Below are positions 1,066 to 36,120 of a stretch of DNA of 40,535 nt, in pieces. Position numbers and translations under genes: made by a program. Where the stretch lies: positions 1-40,535 of IMG/VR virus record IMGVR_UViG_3300049173_000046; one strand, given 5' to 3'. Positions within the stretch are counted from its first letter, which is position 1; every line of letters starts with the position of its first letter. Source of the stretch: a virus (Duplodnaviria; Caudoviricetes). The notes beneath the pieces are model-generated. The model ran no database searches. It saw nothing but the letters and a program-made list of their open reading frames with translations, and had not been told where the DNA came from.

Positions 1066-2650
1066 GCTCTACGGCGACGAAATTCCGCGGGTCTTTACTC
1101 CACCTTTGCGCCGGCTGACTCCTAAGACGTCGGCCGGCTTTGCCTGTATCGAATTTGCGGAAGACGTCCTGGGGCTGACCCTCTACCCGTGGCAAAAATT
1201 TTTTTTAGTTCACGCGCTGGAACTGCTGCCGGACGGGTCCTTCCGCTTCCGGACCGTGGTTCTCCTGGTGGCGCGGCAAAACGGTAAAAGCACGCTTGCT
1301 CAAGTCCTCGCGCTGTTCTTTATGTACCTTCGGGGCGCGCGGCTTGTGATCGGTACGGCGCAAAACTTGGACATCGCGGAAGAAGTCTGGGCCGGGGCCG
1401 TCGAAATTGCGGAAGATTGCGACGAACTGGCCGCGGAAATAAAGCGGGTCAATCAAACGAACGGCAAAAAGTCGCTGGACCTCACGACGGGCGAACGGTA
1501 CAAAGTCCAGACGGCTTCCCGCCGTGGCGGCCGTGGCCTGTCCGGGGATCTCATCCTCTTGGATGAACTCCGGGAACATCAGTCTTGGGATGCCTGGGGC
1601 GCTATCACTAAGACAACGATGGCGCGGGCGCTGGCGCTGATCTTGGCGCTTTCGAACGCCGGCGACGCGTCCTCTATCGTCCTTCGGTATCTGCGGAAAA
1701 TGGCGCACGCTGCACTCGGGGACCCGGACGGGATAAACGCGGACGGGCTCGGGCTGCTGGAAGTCGTGGAAGCGGTGCCGGAAGATATCGCGGAAGACGC
1801 GCCGGACGCCGACGACGATTCCCTCGGCATTTTCGAATGGTCGGCCCCGCCGGGCTGCTCGCTGGACGATAGGGCCGGCTGGGCTGCGGCTAACCCGTCG
1901 CTAGGGTACGCGATAACTGAACGGGCCATTGCGGCAGCGCGGAAGACGGACCCGGAATGGGTTTTTCGAACTGAGGTGCTGTGTCAGTGGAACGACGGCA
2001 CGACGGAGGGGCCGTTCCCGTCCGGGTCCTGGGAAGCGGGGACGGATCCGGCTTCGGCTATTCCTGCGGGGGCCCCCGTTACGTTCTGCGTGGACACTGA
2101 GCACGACCGTTCTCGGTCCTTTATCGCGGCAGCCGGCCGGCGGGAAGACGGCGACGTCCATGTGGAAGTGGTGGCGTCGCGGTACGGCTCGGCCTGGGCC
2201 CTGGATTGGTTCCGGGAACGGGCCACGGAAGCGTCGCCGCTGCGGGTAGTAATTCAAGCTCGAGGCGCTCCGGCGTCCGGGCTGATCGCGGACCTAAAGG
2301 AAATTCCGTTTTTGGAAGTCGTGGAATGGGGCGGCTCGGACCTGGGCGGCGGGTGCGGCAAATTCTATGACGGCGTAAAAGCTCACTTATGGCAGCCGGA
2401 CCCGGCGGAAAACGAAACGGAAGCGGACCGGCCGGCCCGGATTTGGCATCTTCCGCAGCCGGTTCTGGACCTGGCCGCCGGTACGGCGGTTACTAAACCG
2501 CTTGGGGATGCCTGGTGTTGGAACCGGAAGGCGTCGCCATACGGGGCGGCTCCGCTTATGGCCGTTACCGGTGCCGCGTGGGACGTCCTCCTGCCGGTGG
2601 AAGCTGTCGCCGTCTCGGCTTACGAATCGGCGGACCTAATGATCGTTTGA
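1004..2650 (+). CDS. terL: Terminase large subunit
   Basis: LYPWQ, Walker A ARQNGKS, Walker B LILLDE, ANPSLG motif, 548 aa. Confidence 0.97.
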   Translation: MANLRNSGRSRVVKGGSAPAKLYGDEIPRVFTPPLRRLTPKTSAGFACIEFAEDVLGLTLYPWQKFFLVHALELLPDGSFRFRTVVLLVARQNGKSTLAQVLALFFMYLRGARLVIGTAQNLDIAEEVWAGAVEIAEDCDELAAEIKRVNQTNGKKSLDLTTGERYKVQTASRRGGRGLSGDLILLDELREHQSWDAWGAITKTTMARALALILALSNAGDASSIVLRYLRKMAHAALGDPDGINADGLGLLEVVEAVPEDIAEDAPDADDDSLGIFEWSAPPGCSLDDRAGWAAANPSLGYAITERAIAAARKTDPEWVFRTEVLCQWNDGTTEGPFPSGSWEAGTDPASAIPAGAPVTFCVDTEHDRSRSFIAAAGRREDGDVHVEVVASRYGSAWALDWFRERATEASPLRVVIQARGAPASGLIADLKEIPFLEVVEWGGSDLGGGCGKFYDGVKAHLWQPDPAENETEADRPARIWHLPQPVLDLAAGTAVTKPLGDAWCWNRKASPYGAAPLMAVTGAAWDVLLPVEAVAVSAYESADLMIV

Positions 2651-2669
2651 ACCTGGAAGGCGGGCTGCC

Positions 2670-2945
2670 GTGGCAGTGGTGGAAATTGTGGCGGTGGTCC
2701 TGCTCATTGTGGCGGCGGCGGTGTATCTGCTCCGGCCGTGGTGGTCCTGGCGGCCCCTGTTGGCTCGTCGGGTGGTGGTCAATCTCAAGTCCGGCCGGGG
2801 TATCTCCGGGCTGCTGGTCCGCCGGTCCGGCGACTTGCTATTCATCCGGGACGCCGTGGCGCTCGAACCGGGCGCGGAACCTGCGGCCGCGGACGGGGAA
2901 GCTGTAGTGGCTCGGGCCGATATCGACTTTATCCAGGCACTATGA
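2670..2945 (+). CDS. Membrane-anchored Sm/LSm-like (putative RNA-binding) protein
   Basis: N-terminal TM helix, then RVVVNLKSGRGISGLL (Sm1-like) and GEAVVARADIDFIQ (Sm2-like). Confidence 0.6.
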   Translation: MAVVEIVAVVLLIVAAAVYLLRPWWSWRPLLARRVVVNLKSGRGISGLLVRRSGDLLFIRDAVALEPGAEPAAADGEAVVARADIDFIQAL

Positions 2946-2961
2946 ACCGGGCGGTGAAACT

Positions 2962-4932
2962 GTGGCTTTTGTAGTCTCTGAGGGCGCACTGCGGGGGGTG
3001 GCGGTTCCTGTCCGGGGCCCCGTTGCGTCGGTTCAACTCGCCGCGGACTTAACGCAGGATTATGCGGCTATCTGGCGGACCCAGGGCGCGGTTCGAACCG
3101 TCGTGGATTTCCTGGGCCGGAATATCGCGTCGCTTGGGCTGCATCAGTTCCGGCGCGTGTCCGATACGGACCGGGAACGGCTGACGGATACGGACCTAAT
3201 CCGGCTTATCAATCAACCTAACCCGTCTACTACTAAGTACCGGCTACTCGACGCGCTGGTGCATGATATGGGCATTTACGACCGGGCCTATTGGCTCAAG
3301 GCGCGGACCAAAAAGGGGCAGCCGTTCCTGCTCCGGCTGCCGCCGGCGTATGTCCGGCCTATCGGCACGTGGATGTGGGCGGACGCGTTCGAATTCAACG
3401 GCGGCCGGGAACGCAAGATTTACCCGGCGGACCAGGTGGTTCACTTCCGCGGCTACTCGCCGGACGGCGACGCGTCCGGGGCGTCTCCTATCGAATCGCT
3501 GCGCCGGGTGCTGGCGGAAGAATATGAAGCGGGCCGGATGCGGGAAAACACGCTGCGGAACGGGGCCCGCGTCTCGGGTTACCTGGAACGGCCGGCCGGT
3601 GCGCCGGCCTGGTCCGACACTGCGGCGGACCGGTTCCGCCGGTCCTGGCAGGCTCAATATGCCGGCAGCGGTCCCATGGCCGGCGGTACTCCCATTTTAG
3701 AAGATGGGATGAAATTTGTTGCCGCGTCGCAAACGGCGGAACAACTCCAATATGTGGAAGCGCGGAAGCTTACGCGGGAAGAAGTCGCCGCGGCCTATTT
3801 CATCCCGCCGACCATGGTTGGCGTTATGGACTCGGCCACCTTTTCGAACATAAAAGAGCAACATAAACACTTGTACCAGGACACGTTGGGGCCCTGGCTG
3901 CAAATGATCGCGGAAGAACTGGCGCTGCAACTGCTCGGGGACTTCCCGGACTCTCAAGGTACTTACCTAGAGTTCAACCTGGCCGAAAAGCTCCGCGGGT
4001 CCTTTGAAGAACAAGCGGCGCAACTGCAGGCGTCTGTCGGCGGTCCGTTCATGACTCGGAATGAAGCGCGGGCACTGTCTAACCTGCCGGCTATCGACGG
4101 CGGCGACGAACTAATCGTTCCGATGAACGTGACGGAAGGCGGGCAGGCGTCGCCACAGGACTCGGCACCGGACGGGCTTATGGCCGGCGGGGACCGGCTG
4201 GCGCTCAAGGGGGCCCCCGTTCCGCGGGTCAAGGCCGGCCCGGACCTGACGGACGAACAAAAGGCCGGCGCGATGGCCTTGTTTGAGGGGTTCTTCGAAC
4301 GGCAGCGGAAAACGGTGGTTTCCGCTATCGCTGCCGGCGGGGAATGGTGGGACGCGGAACGCTGGAACGCGGAACTTGCCGCGGACCTGGAAGCGTTCGC
4401 GCTGTCGCTGACTACTGAGGTCGGCCGGGCTCAAGCTCTGGCGCTCGGTTTCGACGCGGCGGACTATGACGTGGAACGGACCCTGGAATTCCTGGCGTCC
4501 GTCGCGGCGTCTCGGGCCGAAATGGTCAACACTTCCACGGAACGGACCCTGCGGGCCGAACTGGAAGCGGCGGAAGAAGAACTGGAAGAAGAAGAAGACG
4601 CGGACCGGGCGCGGGCATATGCGGCCGGGGCCGTCTTCGATAACGCCGTCGCTCAACGGGCCGGCGCTGCCGGTTCTGCGTTCGCCGTCAACCTGGCGTC
4701 GTTCGCTTCGGTGGAAGCGGGGGAAAAGCTCGCCGGCGATTCCCTCGTCAAAACGTGGCGCGTAACGTCCAATAACCCGCGGACGGCTCACGTCCGGATG
4801 AACGGGGAAACGGTCCCTATCGGGGAGAAGTTCTCGAACGGGATGAACTGGCCGGGGGACCCTCGGGGCGGCCCGGATGAAGTGGCCGGCTGTGAATGCT
4901 CGGTCGACGTGTCCTATGCGGAAGACAACTAA
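2962..4932 (+). CDS. HK97-type portal protein fused to MuF-like minor head domain
   Basis: INQPNP, VVHFR, GASPI, ILEDGMKF, MTRNEAR portal motifs; C-terminal KTW..PRTAH..NGE..PGDP..CECS MuF-like motif. Confidence 0.92.
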   Translation: MAFVVSEGALRGVAVPVRGPVASVQLAADLTQDYAAIWRTQGAVRTVVDFLGRNIASLGLHQFRRVSDTDRERLTDTDLIRLINQPNPSTTKYRLLDALVHDMGIYDRAYWLKARTKKGQPFLLRLPPAYVRPIGTWMWADAFEFNGGRERKIYPADQVVHFRGYSPDGDASGASPIESLRRVLAEEYEAGRMRENTLRNGARVSGYLERPAGAPAWSDTAADRFRRSWQAQYAGSGPMAGGTPILEDGMKFVAASQTAEQLQYVEARKLTREEVAAAYFIPPTMVGVMDSATFSNIKEQHKHLYQDTLGPWLQMIAEELALQLLGDFPDSQGTYLEFNLAEKLRGSFEEQAAQLQASVGGPFMTRNEARALSNLPAIDGGDELIVPMNVTEGGQASPQDSAPDGLMAGGDRLALKGAPVPRVKAGPDLTDEQKAGAMALFEGFFERQRKTVVSAIAAGGEWWDAERWNAELAADLEAFALSLTTEVGRAQALALGFDAADYDVERTLEFLASVAASRAEMVNTSTERTLRAELEAAEEELEEEEDADRARAYAAGAVFDNAVAQRAGAAGSAFAVNLASFASVEAGEKLAGDSLVKTWRVTSNNPRTAHVRMNGETVPIGEKFSNGMNWPGDPRGGPDEVAGCECSVDVSYAEDN

Positions 4933-4950: not shown

Positions 4951-5709
4951 GTGAAAGTCAAGGATTTACCCGTTCGGGTGAAATTCGATGAAGACGGGCT
5001 GGAAGACGGGCAATTCGTCGGCTATGCGTCCGTTTTCGGCAATATCGATAGCTACGGGGACGTGGTCATGCCGGGCGCGTTCGCTAACACGCTTGCCGAA
5101 TGGAAGGCGTCGGGCAATTCGTTGCCGGTCCTCTACGGGCACAACATGAGCGACCCGGAATACAATATCGGGCACGTTCTGGAAGCGGCGGAAGACGAAC
5201 GCGGCCTGCGGGTCCGTTCCCAGCTGGATCTCGATTCCCCAAAGGGCGCGGCGTCTTACCGGGCCGTCAAGGGTAAGCGAATTTCGCAAATGTCCTTTGC
5301 CTATGACGTCGTGCGCGGTGCGCCGGCGACTCGGGACGGCGTGGACGTTTACGAAATTCACGAGGTCAAGCTTTACGAGGTGTCGTTGGTGCTGATCGGT
5401 GCCAACCAGGAAACTTCCATTCTCGCTGTCAAGGCGGCCGCGGAAGCGGTGGCCGGCGGGGTGAAAGAAGGCCGGGTCCTCTCGGCCAAACATGTGGACT
5501 CGCTGCGGAACGCGCGGGACTCCATCGACGCCGTGTTGTCTGCGGCGGAAGTAGTAACCGAACAAGAGAAGGCCAGCGGTACTGGTGCCGGCGTTAAGGA
5601 CGAGGCGGCTTCCGGCCGTAAGTCTGAGGACCCGGCCCCCAATCCGTCCGCGCGGACCTTGACGGGCTATCTGGCGCTGGAAGCGGACCTAATCGCGGCC
5701 GGCGTCTAA
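4951..5709 (+). CDS. Capsid maturation (prohead) protease, HK97 family
   Basis: GYASVF..DSYGD, LYGH, MSFAY, LYEVSLV..GAN motifs. Confidence 0.95.
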   Translation: MKVKDLPVRVKFDEDGLEDGQFVGYASVFGNIDSYGDVVMPGAFANTLAEWKASGNSLPVLYGHNMSDPEYNIGHVLEAAEDERGLRVRSQLDLDSPKGAASYRAVKGKRISQMSFAYDVVRGAPATRDGVDVYEIHEVKLYEVSLVLIGANQETSILAVKAAAEAVAGGVKEGRVLSAKHVDSLRNARDSIDAVLSAAEVVTEQEKASGTGAGVKDEAASGRKSEDPAPNPSARTLTGYLALEADLIAAGV

Positions 5710-7086: not shown

Positions 7087-7128
7087 GACGGCGGGGCCCC
7101 CGTTCGGGGGTCCGGGGGCCCTGCCGTC
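7087..7128 (+). terminator. Strong hairpin after capsid gene
   Basis: GACGGCGGGGCCCCCG/CGGGGGCCCTGCCGTC stem; no clear U tract. Confidence 0.5.
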
Positions 7129-9044: not shown

Positions 9045-9878
9045 ATGAGCGTAAACGCTTCGCAAGTCCTTACCGGGGCCCCCGATCAACTGACTACGGG
9101 CCCTATCCTCTCGGCACCGCGCGGCACGCCGTTGCCGGGCTCCATCGCGGACGCGCTGGACGCGGCCTTTGAAGATTCCGGGTACGTCTCGGAAGACGGG
9201 CTGACCCTTACGCCGGAACGGTCCACGGAACAAGTCCGTGACTGGTCCGGCTCCGTGGTCCGGGAACTGCTGACCGAATTCGCGGCGAAACTGGCCTGGT
9301 CGCATCTTGAGACAAACGAAACAAGCCTAAAGAACTACATGGGCGACGATAACGTCACGGTGACGGCCGCAACTGCCACGGAAGGCAAAAGGATTACGGC
9401 GCTTCTGCGCTCGTCCGAACTGCCGCGGAAGTCCTGGACATTCAAGATGAAGGACGGCGACGCGCGCGTCCTTATCGTCGTTCCGGACGGGCAGGTTTCC
9501 GAAACGGGCGAGGTGTCCTTCGTCAAGTCCTCGGCGCTGACGTGGCCGGTAACGCTGACAACTTACCCGGACGCGGACGGGGTAAACGTCTATATCTACC
9601 TGGACGACGGCACTGTCCTTACTGCCGGCGTGCCGGTGGTGTCCTCGGTTACCGGTTCGCCGGACCCGGCCGGCGCTGGCCAGCTCGTTACCCTCAAGGG
9701 CTCGCGGCTGACCGGTTCCACCTCGGTCACGGTGGACGGTACTCCGGTTACGGACTTCGTGGTGGTGGACTCCGAAACTATCGTCGCTACCCTGCCGGCA
9801 GGCGACGCGGGCCCGGCTGACGTCCTGGTCACTAACGGCGTGGGTGCTTCCACGGCGTTCTCCTACACTCGCGCGTAA
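9045..9878 (+). CDS. Major tail protein with C-terminal IPT/TIG Ig-like domain
   Basis: GYVSEDG, WSG, LETN motifs; C-term PVVSSV..GQLVTLKG..VTVDG..VVDS..IVATLPA..FSY. Confidence 0.92.
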   Translation: MSVNASQVLTGAPDQLTTGPILSAPRGTPLPGSIADALDAAFEDSGYVSEDGLTLTPERSTEQVRDWSGSVVRELLTEFAAKLAWSHLETNETSLKNYMGDDNVTVTAATATEGKRITALLRSSELPRKSWTFKMKDGDARVLIVVPDGQVSETGEVSFVKSSALTWPVTLTTYPDADGVNVYIYLDDGTVLTAGVPVVSSVTGSPDPAGAGQLVTLKGSRLTGSTSVTVDGTPVTDFVVVDSETIVATLPAGDAGPADVLVTNGVGASTAFSYTRA

Positions 9879-9940: not shown

Positions 9941-9983
9941 ACTGCATACCCGGCCCCCGTTCGTTCCCTGGAAGGCTCCGCAA

Positions 9984-10696: not shown

Positions 10697-13057
10697 GTGG
10701 ACGCCGTGGCGAATGCGGTAGAACTGGCGACGGCTTACCTGTCCTTGGTTCCTTCCATGGAAGGCAGCCGGGAGAAGATTTCGCGGGAACTGATCCCGGC
10801 GGCGGAAAAGGCCGGGCAAGACGCCGGCGATAAAGCCGGCGAGGGCTTTGGGTCCCGGATGAAAACGGCCGGCATCGGGAAGGCGCACGCGGCTGGGCTC
10901 GATATCGGGGCCCGGCTTATGGACGGCTTCGGAATGGCGGCCGAACAGGCGGAACTCGGGCAAAAGCTCGCCGCGCAGCTGGCTCTGACTCCGGCCCAAA
11001 GTGCGAACGCCGGCGCGGCAGCCGGGAAGCTCTACGCCGGCGCTTATGGCGGCAGCCTGGAAGACGTCAACACGGCCGTGGGCGCGGTCATGTCTTCCAT
11101 GTCCGGAATGTCCACGGCATCCCAGGCGGAAATTGAAGCGGTCACGGCTAAGACGCTTGATCTTGCTTCGGCGTTTGATGTGGACGTAAACGAGGCCACT
11201 AACGCGGCCGGCGTTCTCATGAGTACCGGCCTGGCCGGGAACGCTACGGAAGCAATGGACCTAATAACCGTTGCCATGCAAAAAGTACCGGCGCAAATGC
11301 GCGGGGAAGTCTTCCCTATCGTGGAGGAATACTCTAAGCACTTCGCTACCCTCGGGCTCGACGGCGAAACTGCCATGTCGATGATCGTTGGGGCGTCCTC
11401 CGGCGGTATGCAAGCAATCGACAAAACGGGCGACGCGTTAAAGGAATTTTCGCTAATCGCTGTAGGGGCAGCCGGTGACAAAAAGCTAACGGAAGCTTTC
11501 GACTCCATCGGCCTGTCCGCGGACGAAATGTCGCGGGCCATGGCTAACGGTGGCGCGGAAGGTCAAGCGGCAATGAAGCGGACGGCCGAGGGGCTGTTGG
11601 CTATTGAGGACCCGGCGACGCGGGCCCAAACGGCTATTCAGTTGTTTGGCACTCCGCTGGAAGACTTGGGCACGGATCAAATTCCGGGGTTCCTGTCCTC
11701 CCTCGCCGGGGCCGGCAACACTATGGGCGACGTCGCCGGGCAGTCGGCCGAATTCTCGAAAACGCTGAATTCCGGGCCGAAAACGGCCATGCTCACTCTG
11801 CAACGGACCGCGGACACGGCGTTCGCCGGTATCGCTACGGCCGCGCTGCCGGTCCTTACGGAAGTGACGGGCTGGCTAAGCCAAAACGCGTGGGCGTTCG
11901 GGGTTATTGCCGCCGTTATCGGGGTAACCATGGTGGCGGCTTTTACTGCGTGGGCCGTTTCCGCGTGGGCCGTCGTGGCTCCGCTGCTGGCTAACCCGAT
12001 TACCTGGATTGTCCTCGGCATCGTCGCGCTAATCGCGGCGCTTGTCCTCCTGGTGATGAACTGGGACACGGTCGTCGCGTGGGTCACGGAAGTGTGGGGC
12101 GGTTTCGTCAACTGGGCCGGGGAAGCATTCGCCGGCCTGGGCTCCTGGCTCGCTGAAATTTGGAACGGGATTTCGTCCTGGTTCATGGGGGCCCTGTCCG
12201 GCTTCGGCTCCTGGTGGACCGGCATGTGGGGCGGCTTTTTCAACTGGGTCGGGGAAATTTTCGGCGGCTTCGGTAACTGGATAATGTCCATTTGGAACGG
12301 GATAGCGGCCTGGTTCATGGGGGCCCTTTCGGCTTACCTGTCGTTCTGGTCCTCCATCTGGACGAACGTGTCCAATTTCGTGATGTCCGTTTGGAACGGG
12401 ATAACCGGATTTATTGCCGGGATTCCGGGCGCTATCTTCGGTTACCTGGGGCAGCTTGCGGCCCTGGGCGGCATGGCGCTCGAATGGTTCGGGGGCATCC
12501 TGTCCGCCGGCATGGCGAAACTCGGGGAACTCATCGGCTTCGTGGCCGGCATTCCGGGCCAAATAGTCGGGTTCTTTGCCGGGCTCGGCGGGATGCTGTG
12601 GGACGCCGGCAGCCAAATTATCGGCGGGCTGCTCGACGGGCTCAAGGCCGGGTTTCAGGGTGTTATGGATTTCGTCGGCGGGATCGCCGGCTGGATCGCT
12701 GAACATAAGGGGCCCAAAGCTTACGATATGGGGCTCCTGATCCCGGCCGGCGGCTGGATTATGGGCGGGCTCGAAAAGGGGCTGCGGTCCGAAATTCCGG
12801 CGCTCGAAAAGACGCTGGAAGACATAACGGCCGTGGTCCGGGTGGGGGCTCCGGACTCGGTCGGGCTCGGCCCGGTGGGCGACGTCGCCGGCAGCGTCAC
12901 GGCCGCGGCGTCCGCGTCCGGGTACGGGCCGGCCCCCGTTGGGGCCGGCGTCGTGAACAACATAGAAGTCAATAACCCGGTGCCGGAACCTGCCGGCGCT
13001 TCCATTACTGGCGCGCTGTCTAAAGCTGCCTATCTCGGGCTGGACGGGGGCGAATAG
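10697..13057 (+). CDS. Tape measure protein
   Basis: 786 aa, ELATAY N-term, DK.GDALKEF, TM segments and periodic Trp/Phe repeats; start may be GTG 10706. Confidence 0.95.
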   Translation: MDAVANAVELATAYLSLVPSMEGSREKISRELIPAAEKAGQDAGDKAGEGFGSRMKTAGIGKAHAAGLDIGARLMDGFGMAAEQAELGQKLAAQLALTPAQSANAGAAAGKLYAGAYGGSLEDVNTAVGAVMSSMSGMSTASQAEIEAVTAKTLDLASAFDVDVNEATNAAGVLMSTGLAGNATEAMDLITVAMQKVPAQMRGEVFPIVEEYSKHFATLGLDGETAMSMIVGASSGGMQAIDKTGDALKEFSLIAVGAAGDKKLTEAFDSIGLSADEMSRAMANGGAEGQAAMKRTAEGLLAIEDPATRAQTAIQLFGTPLEDLGTDQIPGFLSSLAGAGNTMGDVAGQSAEFSKTLNSGPKTAMLTLQRTADTAFAGIATAALPVLTEVTGWLSQNAWAFGVIAAVIGVTMVAAFTAWAVSAWAVVAPLLANPITWIVLGIVALIAALVLLVMNWDTVVAWVTEVWGGFVNWAGEAFAGLGSWLAEIWNGISSWFMGALSGFGSWWTGMWGGFFNWVGEIFGGFGNWIMSIWNGIAAWFMGALSAYLSFWSSIWTNVSNFVMSVWNGITGFIAGIPGAIFGYLGQLAALGGMALEWFGGILSAGMAKLGELIGFVAGIPGQIVGFFAGLGGMLWDAGSQIIGGLLDGLKAGFQGVMDFVGGIAGWIAEHKGPKAYDMGLLIPAGGWIMGGLEKGLRSEIPALEKTLEDITAVVRVGAPDSVGLGPVGDVAGSVTAAASASGYGPAPVGAGVVNNIEVNNPVPEPAGASITGALSKAAYLGLDGGE

Positions 13058-23431: not shown

Positions 23432-23528
23432 CTTGTTCTCCTGGTCTGCTCTATGATGTGGGGGTGCCGGCCCCCCGTTCGGTGTCATGGGGGTGCTTTT
23501 TGGGGGGCCGGCCGTTTTGCTGGTGGGG

Positions 23529-24908: not shown

Positions 24909-25546
24909 GCGCGGGCCCCCGTTTCAAGCTCGGAAGCTGCGGAAAAGTACCCGTATAGGTTCCCGACTATCGGCCGGCCGAATGCGCCGGCGCTGATCGC
25001 TTCCCGCCGGCGTATCTCGGTTCTGAGGACTCGGCAGCCTAACGGCTCAAGCTTCCGCCGGAACCTGCCGGCACTTAGCGCGGTCGGGTTTATCCGGTTC
25101 AAAAGGACCTGGACCCGGACCGGCTCGGGCCGGTGCCGGTCTACCCTCGCCGCGGCGTCCAAAAGTTCCGGGACCTCTGCAAGTTCCATAAGGGACGGGG
25201 CCATGGGAAGCACGACGGCGGACGCGGCGCGCATGGCGCTCTCCACGATGCCGGCTTCCCTCTCAAGTGGGGGCGTATCGATGATAACGACGTCGAACCG
25301 CCGGCCGATTAGTCCGGGCAACTCGCGGTGAATGTGCGGCGTCGCTAGTCGCTCCGTTCGGATGCTCCAGCCGGCTAGGGCGGCCCACTTGCTTAGGCTG
25401 CCGGCCTTGCGGGTGCTGTCTGCGTCCACTAGCAGGACGTTGTGGCCTAACTCCTGGAAGGCGTGGGCTAGGTAAGCGCACGACGTTGTCTTGCCGGTGC
25501 CACCTTTGAAGTTAGCCAGGGCGATTATCTGCGGTTCCGTATCCAT
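24905..25546 (-). CDS. parA: ParA partition ATPase (type Ib-like)
   Basis: KGGTGKTT deviant Walker A, VLLVDAD, IIDTPP, LLNR; probable leaderless start MDTEPQ. Confidence 0.95.
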   Translation of the reverse strand: MDTEPQIIALANFKGGTGKTTSCAYLAHAFQELGHNVLLVDADSTRKAGSLSKWAALAGWSIRTERLATPHIHRELPGLIGRRFDVVIIDTPPLEREAGIVESAMRAASAVVLPMAPSLMELAEVPELLDAAARVDRHRPEPVRVQVLLNRINPTALSAGRFRRKLEPLGCRVLRTEIRRREAISAGAFGRPIVGNLYGYFSAASELETGARA

Positions 25547-26002: not shown

Positions 26003-26257
26003 GCGCGCGAATTTTCGCGCGCGCGTTAACTTAGGTGGGGTACTCGATAACGTCTTGGCCGTGGTGGGTTGGGTATCTAGTAGTTCTGTTTTTCCGGGGC
26101 AAGGAAAAACGCGCTTGCGCGCTTTTCCGCGGCAGCGGGGGGGCGGTCCGCTTTGCGGGCCGGGGGGCCGGGCCCCCTCTCGCCGCTGGTAGGTGGCCTT
26201 AGCTCACCTAGTCTTGGACTACTTACCCGGCCGGCCCCCACGCGAAAAATTCGCGCA
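26003..26257 (+). ncRNA. Candidate structured non-coding RNA / prophage origin
   Basis: Nested complementary segments and internal hairpins, several G-U pairs favouring + strand; no credible ORF. Confidence 0.4.
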
Positions 26258-26745: not shown

Positions 26746-27123
26746 TGCGCTCCTTGCCGGCCTGAGCTTCCGGCGGTCCCGTAGCGAGTTGATAACGGCG
26801 CTGACTGTCTCTAGGTCCTCCGGGGATAGCTCCCGTAAGGATGCGGCCAAAATGTCCACGCGCTGCTGGCCCCCTGTTCCCTCCGGCGTAAGGCCGGCGG
26901 ACGCCATGGCGGCTTGCTGGATAACCCGCAACGGCTGGCGTAGTCCTTTAGCCAGCTTCTCTAGCGTCTCGGCCCGCGGCATGCTGTTCTGCTTGGCGAT
27001 GGCAAGTTGGCCTATCTTCGCTTTCGATAGGCCGGCGCGGGCGGCTATTACTGAATAGCTCTCGCCGGTGCTGTCCTGGTGCGTATGGATTAGCTCGGCT
27101 AACGTTACGGCTTTTGTGTTCAT
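26743..27123 (-). CDS. Immunity repressor (XRE HTH)
   Basis: SYSVIAARAGLSKAKIGQL..P..ETLEKLAKGL; divergent from Cro-like gene. Confidence 0.85.
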   Translation of the reverse strand: MNTKAVTLAELIHTHQDSTGESYSVIAARAGLSKAKIGQLAIAKQNSMPRAETLEKLAKGLRQPLRVIQQAAMASAGLTPEGTGGQQRVDILAASLRELSPEDLETVSAVINSLRDRRKLRPARSA

Positions 27124-27811: not shown

Positions 27812-28851
27812 CGCTTGAACTGTGGCCGGACCATGGCCGGCTTGTCCTCGCTGCCGGCGACTATAAGCGGGACCGGGCGGCGTGGCTCAAGGCGCGGAAG
27901 TCCGGGCTGGGCGCTTCGGATACGGCCGCTATTCTCGGGCTCAATCCGTACAAAACGGCGCTGGACGTATGGCGGGAAAAAACGGCAGCGGCGGACCCGG
28001 ACGACCGGGAAGTCTCGGAAGCGGCAGCCATGGGGCATCTTTTCGAAACGCCGGTCGCGCGCCGGACGGTCAAGCAACGGCCGGACCTCGGGAAGCTCGT
28101 GGCAACTCCTGGACTCCTGGGGCATCCGGAACATTCGTGGATGCTGGCCACGGTGGACTTCGGCCTGGCTCCGCGCGGCAGCCGGGGGGCCCCCGTTCGG
28201 GACCTGCTGGAAGTGAAAACGACGTCGGTCCGTGCCTACCGGAACAACTGGCGCGACGGCATCCCGCCGGCGCTGGTGCAAGTACAGGCGCAGCAACAAA
28301 TGGCGGTAACCGGGGTCGGCCGGTGCTGGGTGACTGTCGCCGTGGGCGGGCTCGGTTCCGGGCTCTGCTCCATCCCGGACCCTTACCCGGTGGACTATTC
28401 GCCGGACGTCTTCCGGCAACTGGTGGACTACGCCGGCCGCTGGTGGGAAGACTTCGTGGTCGGCGGCGTCATGCCGGCCCCGGTGCCGGCGGACGCCGGG
28501 AAGCTGGGGGACCTCTGGCCGGTGGACGATTCCCTCGACGCGGCGGAACTAACGCCGGACCTCGAGGCGACTCTTGCGGACTACCTGGACGCGAAACGCC
28601 GGCGCGACGCGGCGGCGCTGGACCTCGACGCGGCCGCGGTCAAGCTGCAGGCAGCTATCGGGCCCCGTTCGGCCCTGGCGGACCTCGACGGCCGGGCCGT
28701 CGCTACCTGGAAGCAATACGCCGGCAAACGGACCCTAGACAAAAAGGCGCTGGCCGCGGAACGGCCGGACGTCGCGGAAGTGGTCGAACAATTTACCCGG
28801 ACCGGCGAACCTTACCGGCGGTTCATAGTGAAAGAAGAAGTGGACGCATGA
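27808..28851 (+). CDS. YqaJ/RecE-like exonuclease
   Basis: WL..RK.GLGASD.AAILG..PY, GH.FE, ATVD, LEVKT, Q.QQQM.V motifs. Confidence 0.93.
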   Translation: MTLELWPDHGRLVLAAGDYKRDRAAWLKARKSGLGASDTAAILGLNPYKTALDVWREKTAAADPDDREVSEAAAMGHLFETPVARRTVKQRPDLGKLVATPGLLGHPEHSWMLATVDFGLAPRGSRGAPVRDLLEVKTTSVRAYRNNWRDGIPPALVQVQAQQQMAVTGVGRCWVTVAVGGLGSGLCSIPDPYPVDYSPDVFRQLVDYAGRWWEDFVVGGVMPAPVPADAGKLGDLWPVDDSLDAAELTPDLEATLADYLDAKRRRDAAALDLDAAAVKLQAAIGPRSALADLDGRAVATWKQYAGKRTLDKKALAAERPDVAEVVEQFTRTGEPYRRFIVKEEVDA

Positions 28852-30141: not shown

Positions 30142-30605
30142 CGCCGTGGCTTTTCGGGCTCGACGTCGACGGCGTTCCGGTTCCTCAAGGCAGCAAGCGG
30201 ATAGGCCGGAACCGGGGGACCGGCCGGCCGGTGCTGCTGGACGATAACCGGAACCTGGAAGCGTGGCGGGCCCTGGTGGCGCTCCGGGCCCGGCAGGCGT
30301 GGGGCGGCCGGCCCCCCATTGCCGGCCCGGTGTCGGTATGGGCTGACTTTTACCTGCCGCGGCCGGCCGGGCACTTCGGCACCGGCCGGAACGCCGGCGT
30401 CCTCAAGGCGTCCGCGCCGTTTTATCCGGCGGTCAAGCCGGACGGGGACAAACTCCTGCGGGCCGTCTTCGACTCGCTCACGACGGCCGGCGTCTGGAAA
30501 GACGATTCCCTCGCCGTCGTGTGGTCCGGGGCCAAACATTACGCCGGCCCTCTGCGGGTGCCGGGCGTGTCCATTCAAATTCGGGATATGGGGGTGCTGT
30601 CGTGA
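30138..30605 (+). CDS. rusA: RusA-like Holliday junction resolvase
   Basis: PVPQGSK, KPD.DKL.RAV.DSL..W.DDS.V..K.Y. Confidence 0.93.
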   Translation: MTPWLFGLDVDGVPVPQGSKRIGRNRGTGRPVLLDDNRNLEAWRALVALRARQAWGGRPPIAGPVSVWADFYLPRPAGHFGTGRNAGVLKASAPFYPAVKPDGDKLLRAVFDSLTTAGVWKDDSLAVVWSGAKHYAGPLRVPGVSIQIRDMGVLS

Positions 30606-31399
30606 GTATCGAGGCTGTTTCGTGGGCGCTGAACTTTGCGGACGTCCGGGACCCTGGGGAAGCTCTCGTGCTAATCGGGATTGCGAATCATGCCGGGAAG
30701 GACGGCCGCGGCTGCTGGGCCGGGCAGGCGACGCTGGCGCACTATGCGCGTTGCTCGGAACGGACCCTGCGGCGGAAGCTGTCCGCGCTGGAAGCGCGCG
30801 GGGTGATCGTCCGCGGCGACCAGGCACTTGTGGACCATATCCCGGCGTCTCGCCGTCCGGTGGTGTGGGACTTGGAATGGCCGGGACAAAATGGCCGGCC
30901 GGTCAGTCTGTCCGGTCAAGTTGGGCAGCGGGGGCCGGTCACTGGTGGCAGCATGGCCGGTCAAAATGAACCGAGTGGCCGGTCACGGATGTCCGACAAA
31001 CCGGAAGATAAACCGTTAGGGGAACCGTCAGACTTAAAGAACTCGGCCGGCGGCTACAGTTTCGCGGATTTTTGGACCGTTTACCCTCGGCGCGAAAAGC
31101 GGGCGGAAGCGGTCAAGGCGTGGGAAAAGGCAGTCAAGCGGGCGGACCCTGGCGCGATTGTCGCCGGGGCCATCCGGTACTTGCAGGACCCTAACCGGGA
31201 CCCGGCCTTTACGGCGCACGCGTCCTCGTGGCTGAACGGGGACCGGTGGGAAGATGAACCGCTGCCGGCGCGCGGCAGGCAGGCGGACCGGGGGGCCGGC
31301 ATCCTGCAGGCGGAATACCTGGCGGCTCAAGCTGCGGACGCTGCCGGCGTCCTCGGGTACGTTCCGGGCCAGCTCGCTATCGACGGGGGCCCCCGATGA
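30602..31399 (+). CDS. Replication initiator (N-terminal wHTH, C-terminal FW..YP domain)
   Basis: MSIEAVSWA..VLIGIANHA..SERT..L..LE..G; F.DFW.VYPRR..K.A..AW, H.SSWLN.DRW.D. Confidence 0.85.
   Translation: MSIEAVSWALNFADVRDPGEALVLIGIANHAGKDGRGCWAGQATLAHYARCSERTLRRKLSALEARGVIVRGDQALVDHIPASRRPVVWDLEWPGQNGRPVSLSGQVGQRGPVTGGSMAGQNEPSGRSRMSDKPEDKPLGEPSDLKNSAGGYSFADFWTVYPRREKRAEAVKAWEKAVKRADPGAIVAGAIRYLQDPNRDPAFTAHASSWLNGDRWEDEPLPARGRQADRGAGILQAEYLAAQAADAAGVLGYVPGQLAIDGGPR
30897..30985 (+). repeat. Iteron-like GGCCGGTCA repeats (candidate lytic origin)
   Basis: Copies at 30897, 30910 (GTCCGGTCA), 30933, 30955, 30977; last three exactly 22 bp apart. Confidence 0.6.
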
Positions 31400-32721
31400 C
31401 TCTGGAGCCTTACTTCGCGGACGATTCCGCGACGGTTTACGCCGGCGATTGCCTGGACGTCCTCCGGCAGCTTCCGGACAACTCGGTCGACGCCGTGGTG
31501 ACTGATCCGCCGTATGGGCTGGGCAACACTACGCCGGACCTCGTGGCGCAAACTCTGACGGCGTGGGTAGGCGGGGACCGGGAATTCATCCCGGAAGGCC
31601 GGGGCTTTATGGGCCGGCCCTGGGATGCTTTCGTTCCGCCGGTGGCCGTGTGGGATGAAGTGGGCCGGGTCCTCAAGCCGGGCGGCCACGCGCTGGTCTT
31701 CGCCGGGTCCCGGACTCAGGACCTTATGACGCTAGGGCTCCGGCTGGCCGGCCTGGATATCCGGGACACGATCATGTGGGCCTATGGGTCCGGGTTCCCT
31801 AAGTCAAAAGACGTTACGGAAGCTATGGGCCGGTTCCTCGCCGGCGAACGGCCGGCGTCCGGGATAGCTCCGGACGTCTACCGGGTGACGGGTTTCCTCA
31901 AGGCAGCGCGCGACGCTGCCGGCTGGACTAACCGGCAGATAGACGAAATTTTCAAGACTAACGGGATGGCCGGACATTGGACCAGCCAGGCTTCTCAACC
32001 GTCCGTGCCGTCCGTCCGTCAGTGGGAAATTCTCAAGGGGCTTTTAGGGTTCGGGGACGAAATGGACGAACTCGTGGCGGACCTCGGAAGCACTGAACGG
32101 CCGGAAGACTGGGGGCAGGGGGACGGCGACGACCAGTTCCTTTCCACGCTGCGGAAGAACGTGGAATATGCGAATTCGGGCGGCTGGGGTACTGCGCTAA
32201 AGCCGGCTTACGAGCCGATTATCGTGGCGCGTAAACCGGTGGCCGGCAGCATAACGGCGAACGTCAACGCGTGGGGAACGGGCGCGTTCAATATCGACGG
32301 CTGCCGGACCGGCACGGAAGGCGGGGACGCCGGCGGCGGCCGCTGGCCGCTGAATGTCCTGGTGGACGAATCGCAAGCGGGGGAACTGAACCGGCAGGCA
32401 CCGGGGGAATTGCCGGGCCGGTTCTTCCCGACCTTCCGTTATGAAGCTAAGGCGTCCACGGAAGAACGGCCGGCGGTAAACGGCGTTAGCCATCCAACTG
32501 TCAAACCTCTGGAACTTATGCGCTGGCTCTGCCGGCTGGTCACTCCGCCGGGCGGGGTGATCCTGGACCCGTTCGCCGGGTCCGGCTCCACGGTGGAAGC
32601 GGCCGTCCTGGAACGGTTCCGGGCCGTGGGCGTGGAACGTCAGCCGGAATACCTGCCGCTAATCCGGGCCCGGCTGACTAAACCGCTGCAGCCGGTCCTC
32701 GACTTCGGGGCCCTGGTATGA
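31396..32721 (+). CDS. DNA methyltransferase, N4-C/N6-A beta class, with HTH insertion
   Basis: TDPPY, HPTVKP, ILDPFAGSGST. Confidence 0.93.
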   Translation: MTLEPYFADDSATVYAGDCLDVLRQLPDNSVDAVVTDPPYGLGNTTPDLVAQTLTAWVGGDREFIPEGRGFMGRPWDAFVPPVAVWDEVGRVLKPGGHALVFAGSRTQDLMTLGLRLAGLDIRDTIMWAYGSGFPKSKDVTEAMGRFLAGERPASGIAPDVYRVTGFLKAARDAAGWTNRQIDEIFKTNGMAGHWTSQASQPSVPSVRQWEILKGLLGFGDEMDELVADLGSTERPEDWGQGDGDDQFLSTLRKNVEYANSGGWGTALKPAYEPIIVARKPVAGSITANVNAWGTGAFNIDGCRTGTEGGDAGGGRWPLNVLVDESQAGELNRQAPGELPGRFFPTFRYEAKASTEERPAVNGVSHPTVKPLELMRWLCRLVTPPGGVILDPFAGSGSTVEAAVLERFRAVGVERQPEYLPLIRARLTKPLQPVLDFGALV

Positions 32722-33182
32722 ACGGCCGGGGCATGACGCAAACGGAAGCACTCGGCCTGGTGGCATACCTGAACCGGGCCGGGATGCTGCCGGCCATGGA
32801 AGGTCAGGCGGCGGTCTGGAAGGACGCGCTGTGGGACGTCCGGGCCCCCGATGCCATGGAAGCGGCGCGCCGGCTCGTGCGGCAGCCGGACCGGGTGGCA
32901 TACGTCAAGCCGGGCGACGTCCTGCGGGAAGTGCGGAAGCTCCGGGCGGACCGTATCGGCGGCCGCCGGCCGCCGGCCCCGCCGGAACCGCTGGAACCGG
33001 TGCGGGATCTCGAATTTCAGCGGGTCTACCTGGTGGCGCTCGGGGACGGGGCAACGGAAGCGGAAGCGGACGCGGCGGCTTGCTCGGCGCTGGGGCAGGT
33101 CCGCGGGCAGCTTCCGCCGGCGGACCTGCCGCGGCTGCGGGCGCTTATGGCCGGCAAAACGGAAGGCGGGGCGAATGGGTAA
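32718..33182 (+). CDS. Hypothetical (helicase loader/inhibitor-like)
   Basis: W.DAL..A..A..KPGDV..VRK.R pattern near initiator. Confidence 0.5.
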   Translation: MNGRGMTQTEALGLVAYLNRAGMLPAMEGQAAVWKDALWDVRAPDAMEAARRLVRQPDRVAYVKPGDVLREVRKLRADRIGGRRPPAPPEPLEPVRDLEFQRVYLVALGDGATEAEADAAACSALGQVRGQLPPADLPRLRALMAGKTEGGANG

Positions 33183-33783
33183 CTATGCGGCGGAATGGGA
33201 AGCGGAACAAGCGCGGGCCCTGGCGGCTCATATCGGCCGGACCGTGTCCCGGCTCGAATCGCTGGCCGAAAAGTACGGGCAGCTTCGGGGGATGCTGGGC
33301 GACGTCGGGCAGCCGGGGGGCGGGGATGAAGTCCGGACGCCGTCGCGGCCGGGCAGCCGGCCCCCGTTGCGGGTGGACGTCCTCGACACGTTGGGCGACG
33401 TCGAACGCTTCGTGGAGGAACTGTTGCCGCTGGTCCGGGGAACGCTCCGGCTCGGGCCGGGGCCGGGGGCAGCCGGCCGGGGCGTCCGGGTCCGGGCCGG
33501 GCTGGCGGTCATGGCGGCCGGGCTCGGCGGCGTCTATTCTGAGGACCCTGGGTTGGGCGATGCCGTTTCGTCCGCGGCGTGGAAGCTCGAACGCCGGGCC
33601 GCGTGGATTTTCGGGGAACGGTCGAGGGCGTTTGCTCTTACTGAGCCTTGCGCGGCGTGCGGGATGCCGGCCCTTTGGGTTGTCCCGGAACGGATGGTTA
33701 TCCGCTGCGGTAACCCGGCCTGCGGGGATACTCGGCCGGTCGACGTGGTCCTTCCCGTCTACGTTTCCGGGCCGGCATCCTAG
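33175..33783 (+). CDS. Hypothetical protein with C-terminal Zn ribbon
   Basis: P.SRPPL..D.LD, CAACG..C.NPAC; ATG 33175. Confidence 0.65.
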   Translation: MGNYAAEWEAEQARALAAHIGRTVSRLESLAEKYGQLRGMLGDVGQPGGGDEVRTPSRPGSRPPLRVDVLDTLGDVERFVEELLPLVRGTLRLGPGPGAAGRGVRVRAGLAVMAAGLGGVYSEDPGLGDAVSSAAWKLERRAAWIFGERSRAFALTEPCAACGMPALWVVPERMVIRCGNPACGDTRPVDVVLPVYVSGPAS

Positions 33784-34147: not shown

Positions 34148-34151
34148 TAGG

Positions 34152-34533: not shown

Positions 34534-34945
34534 ACCGCCGGCCCAGGCTACTCTCTATCTGGCCGGCCCGATGTCCGGTTTGCCGGATTTCAATCGGCCG
34601 GCGTTTGACCTGGCGGCCCGTAAGTTGCGCGGGGCCGGGTTCGCCGTCCTCAATCCGGCGGAACTGCCGGAACCTGGGCCGGCCCCTGTTTGGTCCGATT
34701 GGATGCGGCCGGCGCTGCGGCTGCTGCTCGACGCGGACGCCGTGGCGCTGCTGCCGGGCTGGCGGGAATCGCGGGGCGCGGTGATCGAATCGGACCTGGC
34801 GCGGGCCCTGGACCTGCCGCGGCTGCCGGTCCTCGGCTGGCTTACTGCCGCCGGGCAGAATGCTTACCGGGGCCGGCTGCTCGGGCCGGATTATGACCTG
34901 ACTGTGCTAGATGAAGTAGGGGGCCGGCATGGCGGGGAAGGCTAA
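34523..34945 (+). CDS. DUF4406 / nucleoside 2-deoxyribosyltransferase-like protein
   Basis: LYLAGPMSG..FN..AF..VLNPA..LPGW..S.GA..E. Confidence 0.85.
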   Translation: MATEPPAQATLYLAGPMSGLPDFNRPAFDLAARKLRGAGFAVLNPAELPEPGPAPVWSDWMRPALRLLLDADAVALLPGWRESRGAVIESDLARALDLPRLPVLGWLTAAGQNAYRGRLLGPDYDLTVLDEVGGRHGGEG

Positions 34946-35192
34946 GCGGCCGGCCGGCGACGCGGGCCGGGCCGTCCGGGACAACGTCCGGATAGCGCGC
35001 GGGTTCATGCCGTATGCCGAACTGTCGCGCCGGCTCGGGGAAAAGGGCGTGGATATCCCGCCGTTAGGGCTCCGGCGTATCGAAAAGGGGGCGCGGCGCG
35101 TGGACGTGGATGAACTTGTGGCGTTCTCGGACGTCTTCGGCATTCCGGTTATTGTCTTGCTCGGGCGGTCCGGCATCCGGGGGGCAAAATGA
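34929..35192 (+). CDS. XRE-family HTH protein
   Basis: YAELSRRL..LRRIEKG.RRVDVDELVA. Confidence 0.85.
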   Translation: MAGKAKRPAGDAGRAVRDNVRIARGFMPYAELSRRLGEKGVDIPPLGLRRIEKGARRVDVDELVAFSDVFGIPVIVLLGRSGIRGAK

Positions 35193-35623
35193 CGCCGGGG
35201 CCGTTCTACTACCACGGCGGGGTGGACGGGCTCCGGCCGGGGGACCTCCTGCTGCCGGGGCATCCTCGGAAGTCGCACGACGGTTGTCCCTGGTGCGCGG
35301 CGCGGGAAGCGGGCGGCGCTCACCTCGGTATGGACGGGCCCAGCCAACTGCCGGCGGTCTACTTCACGCCGGTCCGGCTGTACGCGAAATATCACGCCAG
35401 CCTGTATGGCCGGGGGGACCTCTACCGGGTGGAACCGGTGGGCGACGTCGTCCGGTCCCTGGAAGACTCGCTGGAAACGTGGGCGGCTCCGGCCGCGCGG
35501 GTCCTCGCGGTTATTGACCGGGCTGTGCTACTAACCGACACGGAACGCCGGAAACTTTCCCGGATATGGGAAGCGGCAGACAACGAGATGAAAAGGGCGG
35601 GAATATGGCCGGGGAAACACTGA
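35189..35623 (+). CDS. Arr-like ADP-ribosyltransferase fold protein
   Basis: FYYHG..L.PGDLL.P, VYFT, G..YRVEP.G..ED pattern as in rifampin ADP-ribosyltransferase Arr. Confidence 0.65.
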
Positions 35624-36120
35624 TAACCGTGGTGGGGAACCTGACGGCGGATCCTGAACTCCGCTTTACGCCGGGGGGTTCGGCGGTGTCGAACTTCACG
35701 GTGGCATCCACTCCGCGGCACTTCGACAAAAACACGAACGAATGGAAAGACGCGGAAACGCTGTTCTTGCGCTGCGCTATCTGGCGGGAAGCGGCCGAAT
35801 ATGTGGCCGAATCGCTCAAAAAGGGAATGCGGGTTATCGTCCAGGGCCGGCTCAAGGCGCGGACCTATGAGGATAAGGCCGGCGAAAAACGGACGGTTTA
35901 CGAACTGGACGTGGAAGAAGTGGGCCCCTCGCTGCGGTACGCGTCCGCGACGGTCAAGCGAATGACGCGGCAGGCGGACCCGTCCGGCGGCTATACGAAC
36001 GGCGGGGGCAACTCGGGGCAGGCAGCGGCAGCCGGCGGGGCCCCCGTTGGGCAGCCGGCGGAAGCTGCCGGCGACTGGGGCGGCGGCTGGGGTTCGCCGG
36101 AAACGGAGCCTGTCTTTTAG
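35605..36120 (+). CDS. ssb: Single-stranded DNA-binding protein
   Basis: [26 protein letters not shown], acidic tail EPVF. Confidence 0.97.

What the first reader, a model, noticed from the sequence alone, without database searches (positions are those of the whole stretch)
2071..36048. Polar, quasi-periodic 10-mer GGCCCCCGTT along the genome
Seen: exact copies on + at 2071, 4212, 7095, 9952, 12931, 16656, 19658, 22889, 24914, 28188, 33359 and 36039, and I found no exact AACGGGGGCC on +. Gaps are mostly 2.0-3.7 kb; near-matches (GGCCCCCGAT 31388, 32843, 37871; GGCCCCCTGTT 143) fall in the two larger gaps. Copies occur in rightward genes (often GCC CCC GTT, using the locally uncommon CCC codon), intergenic DNA (7095, 9952) and leftward genes (22889, 24914) without flipping. 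Base composition alone predicts well under 1 copy per strand. Known: Cluster A stoperators follow transcription direction, while Chi and KOPS follow replication or translocation. Inference: an undescribed DNA-polarity signal (lagging-strand priming, Chi-like protection from AdnAB/RecBCD, or a translocase/packaging/ejection guide).
Basis: partly seen in the sequence, partly recalled or inferred. Interest (0 to 1): 0.75.

Follow-up and report, generated by a model that had tools for sequence, protein, structure and literature searches.

The report
Cos half-site copied along phage genome
This Arthrobacter-type phage repeats the left half of its own DNA-packaging cut site (cos) about 25 times, evenly and almost only on one strand, and relatives with a different cos repeat their own version, which likely marks programmed single-strand nick sites.

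Summary
Confirmed: GGCCCCCGTT occurs 12 times on +, never on − (codon-shuffle expectation 0.6), evenly spaced. The window is a complete relative of Arthrobacter cluster-AS phages with ParA instead of integrase. The 10-mer is the commonest form of GGCCCC^CNNT (25+/2−, expected 2.2), and one copy is the left half of the phage's cos (GGCCCC^CTGTTGCCGGCA, placed by homology). Relatives repeat their own cos half: CCC^GAGT in eight cultured AS phages, GGC(G/C)C^AAGT and CCC^GAGC in two other lineages. Orientation ignores transcription; candidate host chromosomes show no enrichment or skew, so it is not Chi, KOPS or a stoperator. Three complete sister phages lack the word and lack a PLD nuclease (NucT-like) plus second small-terminase gene, but also the replication initiator/loader and a methylase. 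Best reading: strand-specific nick sites, as in T5, tf and phiKMV, likely cut by a packaging-linked phage nuclease. No nick is shown; no raw reads were available. I found no description of the word in print. Earlier scan notes report polar evenly spaced words in other phages; none of those shown was tied to cos.

The parts
143..152 (+). cos copy of the word, GGCCCC^CTGT; predicted bottom-strand cut between 148 and 149
   Evidence: aligns with the physical right ends of six cultured AS phage records; register inferred by homology
149..160 (+). predicted 12-nt 3' overhang CTGTTGCCGGCA
   Evidence: homologous to the AS overhang GAGTTGCCGGCA (PMC13454727)
2071..2080 (+). GGCCCCCGTT in terL (Ala-Pro-Val)
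   Evidence: kept in L008 and L240, lost in L378; other codons in distant relatives
4212..4221 (+). GGCCCCCGTT in portal
7095..7104 (+). GGCCCCCGTT, intergenic, in a hairpin-like stretch after the capsid gene
9952..9961 (+). GGCCCCCGTT, intergenic before the tail chaperone; AS phages have their own word here
12931..12940 (+). GGCCCCCGTT in tape measure gene
16656..16665 (+). GGCCCCCGTT in minor tail gene; three word-less relatives encode the same W-A-P-V with other codons
19658..19667 (+). GGCCCCCGTT in endolysin
22889..22898 (+). GGCCCCCGTT inside a leftward gene, not flipped
24914..24923 (+). GGCCCCCGTT at the 3' end of leftward parA, not flipped
28188..28197 (+). GGCCCCCGTT in recE
33359..33368 (+). 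GGCCCCCGTT in a rightward gene, Arg-Pro-Pro-Leu frame
36039..36048 (+). GGCCCCCGTT in ssb C-terminal linker
9077..9086 (+). variant GGCCCCCGAT
   Evidence: 4 copies vs null 0.14
31388..31397 (+). variant GGCCCCCGAT
32843..32852 (+). variant GGCCCCCGAT
37871..37880 (+). variant GGCCCCCGAT
13585..13594 (+). variant GGCCCCCTGT, identical to the cos form
   Evidence: 3 copies including cos vs null 0.07
26868..26877 (+). variant GGCCCCCTGT in leftward repressor gene
5634..5643 (+). weaker variant GGCCCCCAAT (may be chance)
   Evidence: lost in L008 and L033
17565..17574 (+). weaker variant GGCCCCCGGT
22488..22497 (+). weaker variant GGCCCCCCTT, leftward gene
23469..23478 (+). weaker variant GGCCCCCCGT, leftward gene
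26171..26180 (+). weaker variant GGCCCCCTCT
30310..30319 (+). weaker variant GGCCCCCCAT
36195..36926 (+). NucT-like PLD-family nuclease, candidate nickase; H152, K154, N172, N174, E180 invariant
37020..37358 (+). second small-terminase-like gene (P27 type, PF05119), candidate partner
   Evidence: gene 54 of Galaxy in PMC5513430
40191..40466 (+). HNH endonuclease beside cos, alternative candidate nickase
757..1065 (+). terminase small subunit
   Evidence: PF23931
1037..2650 (+). terminase large subunit
30602..33182 (+). O-like initiator, N6/N4 methylase and G39P-like loader: genes that share the word's presence pattern and confound the NucT link

Best explanation
The word is a same-strand, evenly spread copy of the left half of this phage's cos site (register by homology), and it likely marks places where a phage nuclease tied to DNA packaging nicks the bottom strand, at the position the cos cut would take (AACG^GGGGCC). 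Shown: enrichment, polarity, independence from transcription, match to cos, joint change of cos and word in four lineages. The enzyme I favour is the NucT-like PLD nuclease guided by the second small-terminase protein (about 0.3), ahead of the cos-side HNH or TerL (about 0.2). A nick every 2-3 kb would let DNA swivel or bend during translocation; redundant copies would decay and long gaps be refilled, which would give the even spacing.
For: (1) 25+/2− vs 2.2 expected; the relatives' G-type word is at chance here (2 vs 1.6). (2) Cos reads GGCCCC^CTGTTGCCGGCA, in register with AS ends. (3) Eight of eight cultured AS phages: GG[GC]CCC^G[AC]NT 15-28 on + vs 0.9-2.1 expected, 2-6 on −, C-type 0-1; the six with ends in the record have CCC^GAG at cos. 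G008 (cos GGACCC^GAGT): GGCCCCGAGT 7+/1−. G009 (CCCGAGTT in the cos region, 4 nt further from CCGGCA): CCCCGAGT 20+/1−. L095 (cos CCC^GAGC): CCCCCGAGC 13+/2− in 17 kb. The L244 lineage (cos ACCGC^AAGT): GGC[CG]CAAGT at 7 sites on +, 0 on −, in about 22 kb of fragments, against 0-3 in each of 14 other genomes. (4) No flip in leftward blocks: AS 43+/5−, window 6+/0−. (5) Same peptides, other codons in relatives. (6) NucT and the second TerS are in 13 of 13 genomes with the word (one weak) and 0 of 3 complete sisters without it. (7) NucT has a PLD/Nuc fold with intact catalytic residues; in 46 of 55 loci scanned a terminase subunit follows within two ORFs; it is gene 1 of Gordonia BetterKatz-type phages and of phi16. 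(8) At columns invariant among G-type phages the window differs at 0 of 30 in HNH, 1 of 43 in TerS, 3 of 293 in TerL, but 15 of 125 in NucT. (9) Known nick motifs have this pattern: 14 one-strand sites in 46 kb in tf (PMC3517423), 13 in Rembedalsseter (PMC11780129).
Against: Only 2 of 17 distant NucT-bearing phages show a dispersed polar word (phi16 ACCCGATC 15/0, BetterKatz GGGCGGCTA 11/0), and neither matches its cos without indels. The NucT-positive prophage in G001 has the word only weakly (6+/0−, expected 1.4, shuffle max 6). G008 is less polar on the wide pattern (12+/8−). Kuleana's cos reads GAGC while its words end in T. RecE, SSB and the initiator differ at G-invariant columns as often as NucT (14%, 11%, 9%), and Mantel tests did not single out any of 14 proteins. 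Even spacing is significant in only 1 of 8 AS genomes. The top-strand half of cos was tested only by raw counts.
Confidence: 0.5

Rival explanations
1. Binding site without cutting: a terminase-type protein that recognises the cos left half binds each copy and orients, pauses or re-engages the packaging motor.
For: Explains cos match, covariation and polarity equally well; a second TerS-like gene tracks the word.
Against: TerS, TerS2 and TerL hardly change where the word changes (1/43, 2/42, 3/293); I know no precedent for genome-wide polar TerS sites (own knowledge).
Confidence: 0.17
2. Replication signal: the sites are nicked or bound inside the cell to switch theta to rolling-circle replication, or to load host helicase/primase on one strand.
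For: The word co-occurs with the O-like initiator and G39P-like loader; no phage primase among the ORFs scanned; a maximum-gap pattern fits a process of limited range.
Against: The initiator gene's own repeats are different words (GGCCGGTCA; GAACCGTCC in AS); no flip at that putative origin; host priming would not change with cos.
Confidence: 0.17
3. Strand-specific methylation mark set by the phage N6/N4 methylase that licenses cos cutting (P1 pac-like; recalled).
For: The 441-aa methylase shares the presence pattern.
Against: Only 4 of 212 G-invariant methylase columns differ, all shared with a lineage that has another word; a gapped 10-bp asymmetric target is unusual for such enzymes (own knowledge).
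Confidence: 0.06
4. Host-read polarity signal (Chi-like for AdnAB/RecBCD, or KOPS/AIMS for FtsK).
For: Lambdoid phages can carry abundant Chi (PMC12315714, abstract).
Against: Four Micrococcaceae genomes hold 2-13 copies of the window word and 9-19 of the Galaxy word, similar to reversed controls and on both strands; 16 patterns sit at Markov expectation without consistent skew in 400 kb of each of two hosts, whose skewed word is GGGGGAG (73/4, 106/9); the phage encodes RecE/RecT; the word changes with cos. The window's true host is unknown.
Confidence: 0.03
5. Stoperator-like repressor sites that block transcription.
For: Asymmetric, dispersed, in a temperate actinophage with a repressor.
Against: No flip in leftward genes: 43+/5− in AS, 6+/0− in the window; most copies are mid-gene.
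Confidence: 0.03
6. Chance or codon-pair bias.
For: 7 of 12 exact copies encode Ala-Pro-Val.
Against: 0 of 500 codon-context shuffles exceed 4; several frames, both coding strands and intergenic DNA.
Confidence: 0.01

Closest known systems
Programmed single-strand nick motifs of Pseudomonas phage tf / LUZ24-like phages (TACT^RTGMC), Rembedalsseter (WACTRTGAC), phiKMV-like phages and T5 (PMC3517423 passages and Discussion; PMC11780129 passages and section 3.9)
   Same: 9-10-bp asymmetric word, one strand only, about one per 3 kb, inside and outside genes, lineage-specific variants.
   Different: Those are lytic phages with direct terminal repeats, and the passages read do not tie the nick word to the genome-end cut. 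Here the phage is a temperate cos siphovirus, the word is half of cos and changes with it, spacing is even rather than clustered in one half, and nicks are not shown.
Cos-adjacent HNH nicking endonucleases such as N.phiGamma (PMC3592412 passages and one Discussion section)
   Same: An HNH gene sits beside cos; such enzymes nick one strand at short sites, and the authors speculate that nicks relieve packaging tension.
   Different: Their sites are 3-8 bp and the passages read report no polar genome-wide array; HNH here is also present in the three word-less phages.
Chi sites in lambdoid phages (PMC12315714 abstract) and actinobacterial AIMS (T/C)GGGGGAG (PMC2830990 passage)
   Same: Short polar words spread through coding DNA.
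   Different: Host-read and abundant or skewed on the host chromosome; this word is neither and differs between related phages.
Cluster A mycobacteriophage stoperators (recalled)
   Same: Asymmetric dispersed word in a temperate actinophage.
   Different: Stoperators follow transcription; this word does not.

Membership tests
Programmed nick (sci) motifs (T5, tf, phiKMV) | Enriched asymmetric word confined to one strand | tested here: met
   12/0 and 25/2
Programmed nick (sci) motifs (T5, tf, phiKMV) | Orientation independent of the coding strand | tested here: met
Programmed nick (sci) motifs (T5, tf, phiKMV) | Ligatable nick at the word in virion DNA | not testable with these tools
   only assembled contigs were available
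Programmed nick (sci) motifs (T5, tf, phiKMV) | Phage genes required for nicking | tested here: inconclusive
   NucT+TerS2 track the word 13/13 vs 0/3 but are confounded
cos nick half-site | Word coincides with a cos cut position | tested here: met
   record ends of six AS phages and the published 12-nt overhang; for the window by homology only
cos nick half-site | Word changes when cos changes | tested here: met
   C, G, A and GAGC types; Kuleana discordant at one position
Chi | Over-represented in the host chromosome | tested here: not met
   on candidate hosts; true host unknown
KOPS/AIMS | Strongly strand-skewed on the host chromosome | tested here: not met
   GGGGGAG is the skewed word
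Stoperator | Orientation follows transcription | tested here: not met
Replication iterons | Clustered at the origin in the initiator gene | tested here: not met
Primase or helicase-loading sites | Priming or loading occurs at the word | not testable with these tools
   needs Okazaki-end mapping or in vitro priming

The most novel reading that the evidence does not exclude
Cluster-AS phages carry a two-gene nicking module (PLD nuclease plus small-terminase paralogue) that makes one of the two cos cuts and nicks the same word every few kb of the packaged strand; cos, the whole genome-wide array and the enzyme are rewritten together when specificity shifts, and overhang length could vary (11, 12 or 16 nt between the two half-sites). 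That would tie programmed genome nicks to terminase specificity and name the enzyme.
Probability: 0.3. Interest if true: 0.85.

Novelty: new variant of a known kind. Interest (0 to 1): 0.72.

Why it matters
Programmed nicks in phage DNA have been known for about 50 years with no function assigned (PMC11780129). This family offers what the papers I read on the known cases do not: a word identical to half of the packaging cut site, four natural specificity variants, natural word-less sisters, a short list of candidate enzymes, and many cultured temperate phages of a harmless soil host (Galaxy has 21 exact copies). One denaturing gel or native nanopore run tests the nick prediction at base resolution; gene deletions name the enzyme. 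If no nicks are found, the array is a cos-derived genome-wide signal of a kind I could not find described.

Tried and rejected
Raw reads for nick pile-ups: the one run search (Andrew left arm) gave 8 runs, all contigs; laying 4 of them showed no start/end information. Complex prediction of NucT dimer with TerS2: no answer, score 0.00, neither for nor against. Mantel tests of word profile against 14 proteins: rho 0.14-0.51, no discrimination, noisy profiles. PDB sequence search with the NucT profile: nothing; Pfam has no family for it. The careful TerL tree did not finish; the quick tree of 40 rows was used. Metagenome scan gave 21 loci, mostly short or duplicates. Cos-like words in G005-G007: no strand excess at up to 2 mismatches (122/131, 94/111, 82/105). 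Ten NucT-less distant relatives plus L102 and L098: best words log10 p −3 to −8, positions not examined. Top words of G040, G041, G049, G053 are tandem arrays; those of G038, G042, G047 were not checked by position. Literature: the four 10-mers gave 61 papers, none of the 20 listed on phages; 'NucT-like'+'phage' 0; 'Arthrobacter phage'+'Galaxy'+'repeated sequence' 0; the Klyczek paper has 0 hits for 'motif' and 'stoperator'; searches listed nothing on this word. Subscription papers and supplements were not seen and may describe it.
Full report
Observation. GGCCCCCGTT occurs at the 12 listed places, all on +, none on −. Dinucleotide shuffles give 0.63 (max 3 of 100). Shuffles that keep each amino acid and the next codon's first base, on genes called by my own script, give 0.60 (max 4 of 500), and the word ranks first among all 10-mers. 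On the 40,408-bp circle (127-nt terminal repeat removed) the gaps have CV 0.36 against 0.90 at random, P=0.0004.

The genome. It is a complete 40.5-kb virus record, about 70% identical over the head genes to Arthrobacter cluster-AS siphoviruses such as Galaxy and LittleTokyo: TerS, TerL, portal, capsid, tail, lysin, a leftward central block, repressor, RecE/RecT, RusA, O-like initiator, methylase, SSB, a NucT-like nuclease, a second TerS-like gene and an HNH beside the end. ParA and a small gene stand where AS phages have integrase, so it is likely a plasmid prophage.

The word is half of cos. Six of the eight cultured AS records fetched end in CCC^GAG(T/C)TGCCGG(C/G)A; Marchesin and Cupello are partial. 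PMC13454727 (part 1 of 3 read) gives the 12-nt 3' overhang GAGTTGCCGGCA; PMC5513430 (passages) lists a 12-base 3' end for Galaxy. The homologous place in the window is 143-163, GGCCCC^CTGTTGCCGGCA^GTG. In that register the 10-mer is GGCCCC^CGTT, and GGCCCC^CNNT occurs 25 times on + and twice on − against 2.2 expected. The wildcard was chosen with cos in view, but the 9 copies that are neither GTT nor GAT exceed all 500 shuffles and the neighbouring patterns are at chance. The cos copy falls in the largest gap; with it CV drops to 0.29, 0 of 20,000. With 24 other copies in 40.4 kb, a given position and strand would carry one by chance about 6 times in 10,000 (arithmetic).

Word and cos change together. 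Eight of eight AS phages have GG[GC]CCC^G[AC]NT 15-28 times on + (expected 0.9-2.1; 2-6 on −) and the C type 0-1 times; the window has the G type at chance. Galaxy has GGCCCCGAGT 21+/1−. G008, in the window's TerL clade but with cos GGACCC^GAGTC, has GGCCCCGAGT 7+/1−, though 12+/8− on the wide pattern. G009 has CCCCGAGT 20+/1− and CCCGAGTT in its cos region, 4 nt further from the conserved CCGGCA. A Micrococcus prophage fragment (L095) with cos CCC^GAGC has CCCCCGAGC 13+/2− in 17 kb. Seven overlapping fragments of another sister lineage (cos ACCGC^AAGTT) have GGC[CG]CAAGT at 7 sites on + (8 contexts, two being strain variants of one site) and none on −, against 0-3 in each of 14 other genomes (pattern chosen from its cos, no shuffle run). 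Discordant or weak: Kuleana's cos is GAGC while its words end in T; the G001 prophage has 6+/0− (expected 1.4, shuffle max 6); G054 has 5 vs 0.5 in 22 kb. Three complete sisters (G005-G007; cos ^CCTTT, ^CATTT, ^CTTTC) have no such word.

How copies arise. At 17 window sites aligned to relatives most orthologous places lack any form of the word; conserved Pro-Val codons at 2071, 16656 and 28188 use other codons. Some soft spots are shared (the hairpin after the capsid gene, the gap before the tail chaperone). In relatives at 88-92% identity 2071 is kept in 2 of 3, 4212 is kept as a variant, 5634 and 37871 are lost. Sites turn over while the array persists.

Not transcription, not host. In the leftward blocks the word stays on +: 43+/5− over eight AS phages and 6+/0− in the window, which rules out a stoperator (definition recalled). 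Four Micrococcaceae genomes hold both words at control levels on both strands; in 400 kb of each of two, 16 patterns sit at Markov expectation, while GGGGGAG is skewed 73/4 and 106/9, the known actinobacterial AIMS (PMC2830990 passage). The true host is unknown. The initiator's own repeats are other words.

Who reads it. HNH, TerS and TerL are in phages with and without the word. NucT, TerS2, the 441-aa methylase and g44 are in 13 of 13 genomes with the word and 0 of 3 without; an O-like initiator follows the same pattern. g44 resembles the G39P helicase loader (lead only). On the quick TerL tree G007 and G005/G006 lie apart, so one or two losses. NucT folds as a single PLD/Nuc domain (pLDDT 86.5; best matches R.NgoAVII, Zucchini, BfiI, NucT, E about 1e-5 to 1e-4) with the HxK and N-x-N..E residues invariant in 89 sequences. 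Of 80 NucT loci I took 61 to a script and scanned 79 downstream ORFs of 55; 46 of 55 have a terminase subunit within two ORFs. It is gene 1 in the Gordonia records listed and precedes TerS/TerL in phi16. Klyczek et al. noted Galaxy's two TerS genes. At G-invariant columns the window differs at 0/30 in HNH, 1/43 in TerS, 3/293 in TerL, 2/42 in TerS2, 4/212 in the methylase and 15/125 in NucT, but also 17/123 in RecE, 7/62 in SSB and 6/67 in the initiator. Four strict-GAGT phages (Galaxy, Abidatro, G008, G054) share one NucT loop type across TerL clades, and the C- and A-type phages share another, yet Mantel tests single out no protein. Against NucT as sufficient: 2 of 17 distant NucT phages have a dispersed polar word, neither an ungapped match to cos.

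Mechanism. A signal with one orientation around the whole genome, equal to the bottom-strand cut half of cos and rewritten with it, is most simply read by a phage enzyme that acts at cos (inference). The closest described pattern is the programmed nick motif: 14 top-strand sites in tf, with T5's sciA/sciB mapped to the late region and nicks of phikF77 reappearing late in infection (PMC3517423 passages and Discussion); 13 sites in Rembedalsseter seen by nanopore, function unknown (PMC11780129 passages and section 3.9). Cos-side HNH enzymes nick one strand at short sites and were proposed to relieve packaging tension (PMC3592412 passages and one section). I commit to nick sites at 0.5 (NucT-TerS2 about 0.3, HNH/TerL about 0.2), with binding-only packaging sites and a replication role at 0.17 each. 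It works like the T5/tf system by pattern; membership is untested because no nick could be looked for.

Novelty. Searches listed under Tried and rejected found no description of the word or of a dispersed cos half-site; subscription papers and supplements were not seen. Earlier scan notes list polar evenly spaced words in other phages, unchecked here, and none of the eight shown mentions cos; no notes exist on look-alike stretches. Verdict: real, selected, cos-derived; a new variant of a known kind; interest 0.72.

Noticed in passing
window 24603-26700: ParA plus a small ParG-sized gene, TACTT(A/G)CCTAAGTA repeats flanking them (24580, 25566; parS candidates) and a largely non-coding stretch replace the AS integrase; four IMG/VR sisters (G005-G008) also have ParA, so there is an uncultured plasmid-prophage branch of cluster AS.
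   Followed up: partly
G005, G006, G007 (L146-L151): No O-like initiator or helicase loader was found in these complete ParA-bearing sisters, so lytic replication may run from the plasmid origin; a 117-127-aa ORF of no known family lies beside parA in them and in the window (25619-26002).
   Followed up: partly
L159-L160 (phi16) and L158 (BetterKatz): Dispersed one-strand words in two cultured NucT-bearing phages: ACCCGATC 15/0 in all frames and leftward genes; GGGCGGCTA 11/0 in the right 60% of the genome.
   Followed up: partly
G001:C1:1-400000 and G002:C1:1-400000: GGGGGAG is strongly strand-skewed (73/4, 106/9), the actinobacterial AIMS; a CTCCCCCC-like tract also lies just right of cos in these phages.
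   Followed up: partly
L155:10830-11060 and L095:499-584: The distance between the two cos half-sites is 16 nt in G009 and 11 nt in L095 against 12 in AS phages and the window.
   Followed up: no
window 30890-30990: Four GGCCGGTCA repeats inside the initiator gene, likely origin iterons.
   Followed up: partly
window 21045-21608 (−): Lsr2 DNA-binding-domain protein in the leftward block.
   Followed up: no
whole window: Glu is coded GAA 541 times and GAG 128 times, unusual at 65% G+C.
   Followed up: no
L300, L308, L313, L288: Tandem arrays in distant NucT phages: 12-nt units (G041), 81-nt units (G049), 15-nt units (G053), 8-nt units (G040).
   Followed up: no
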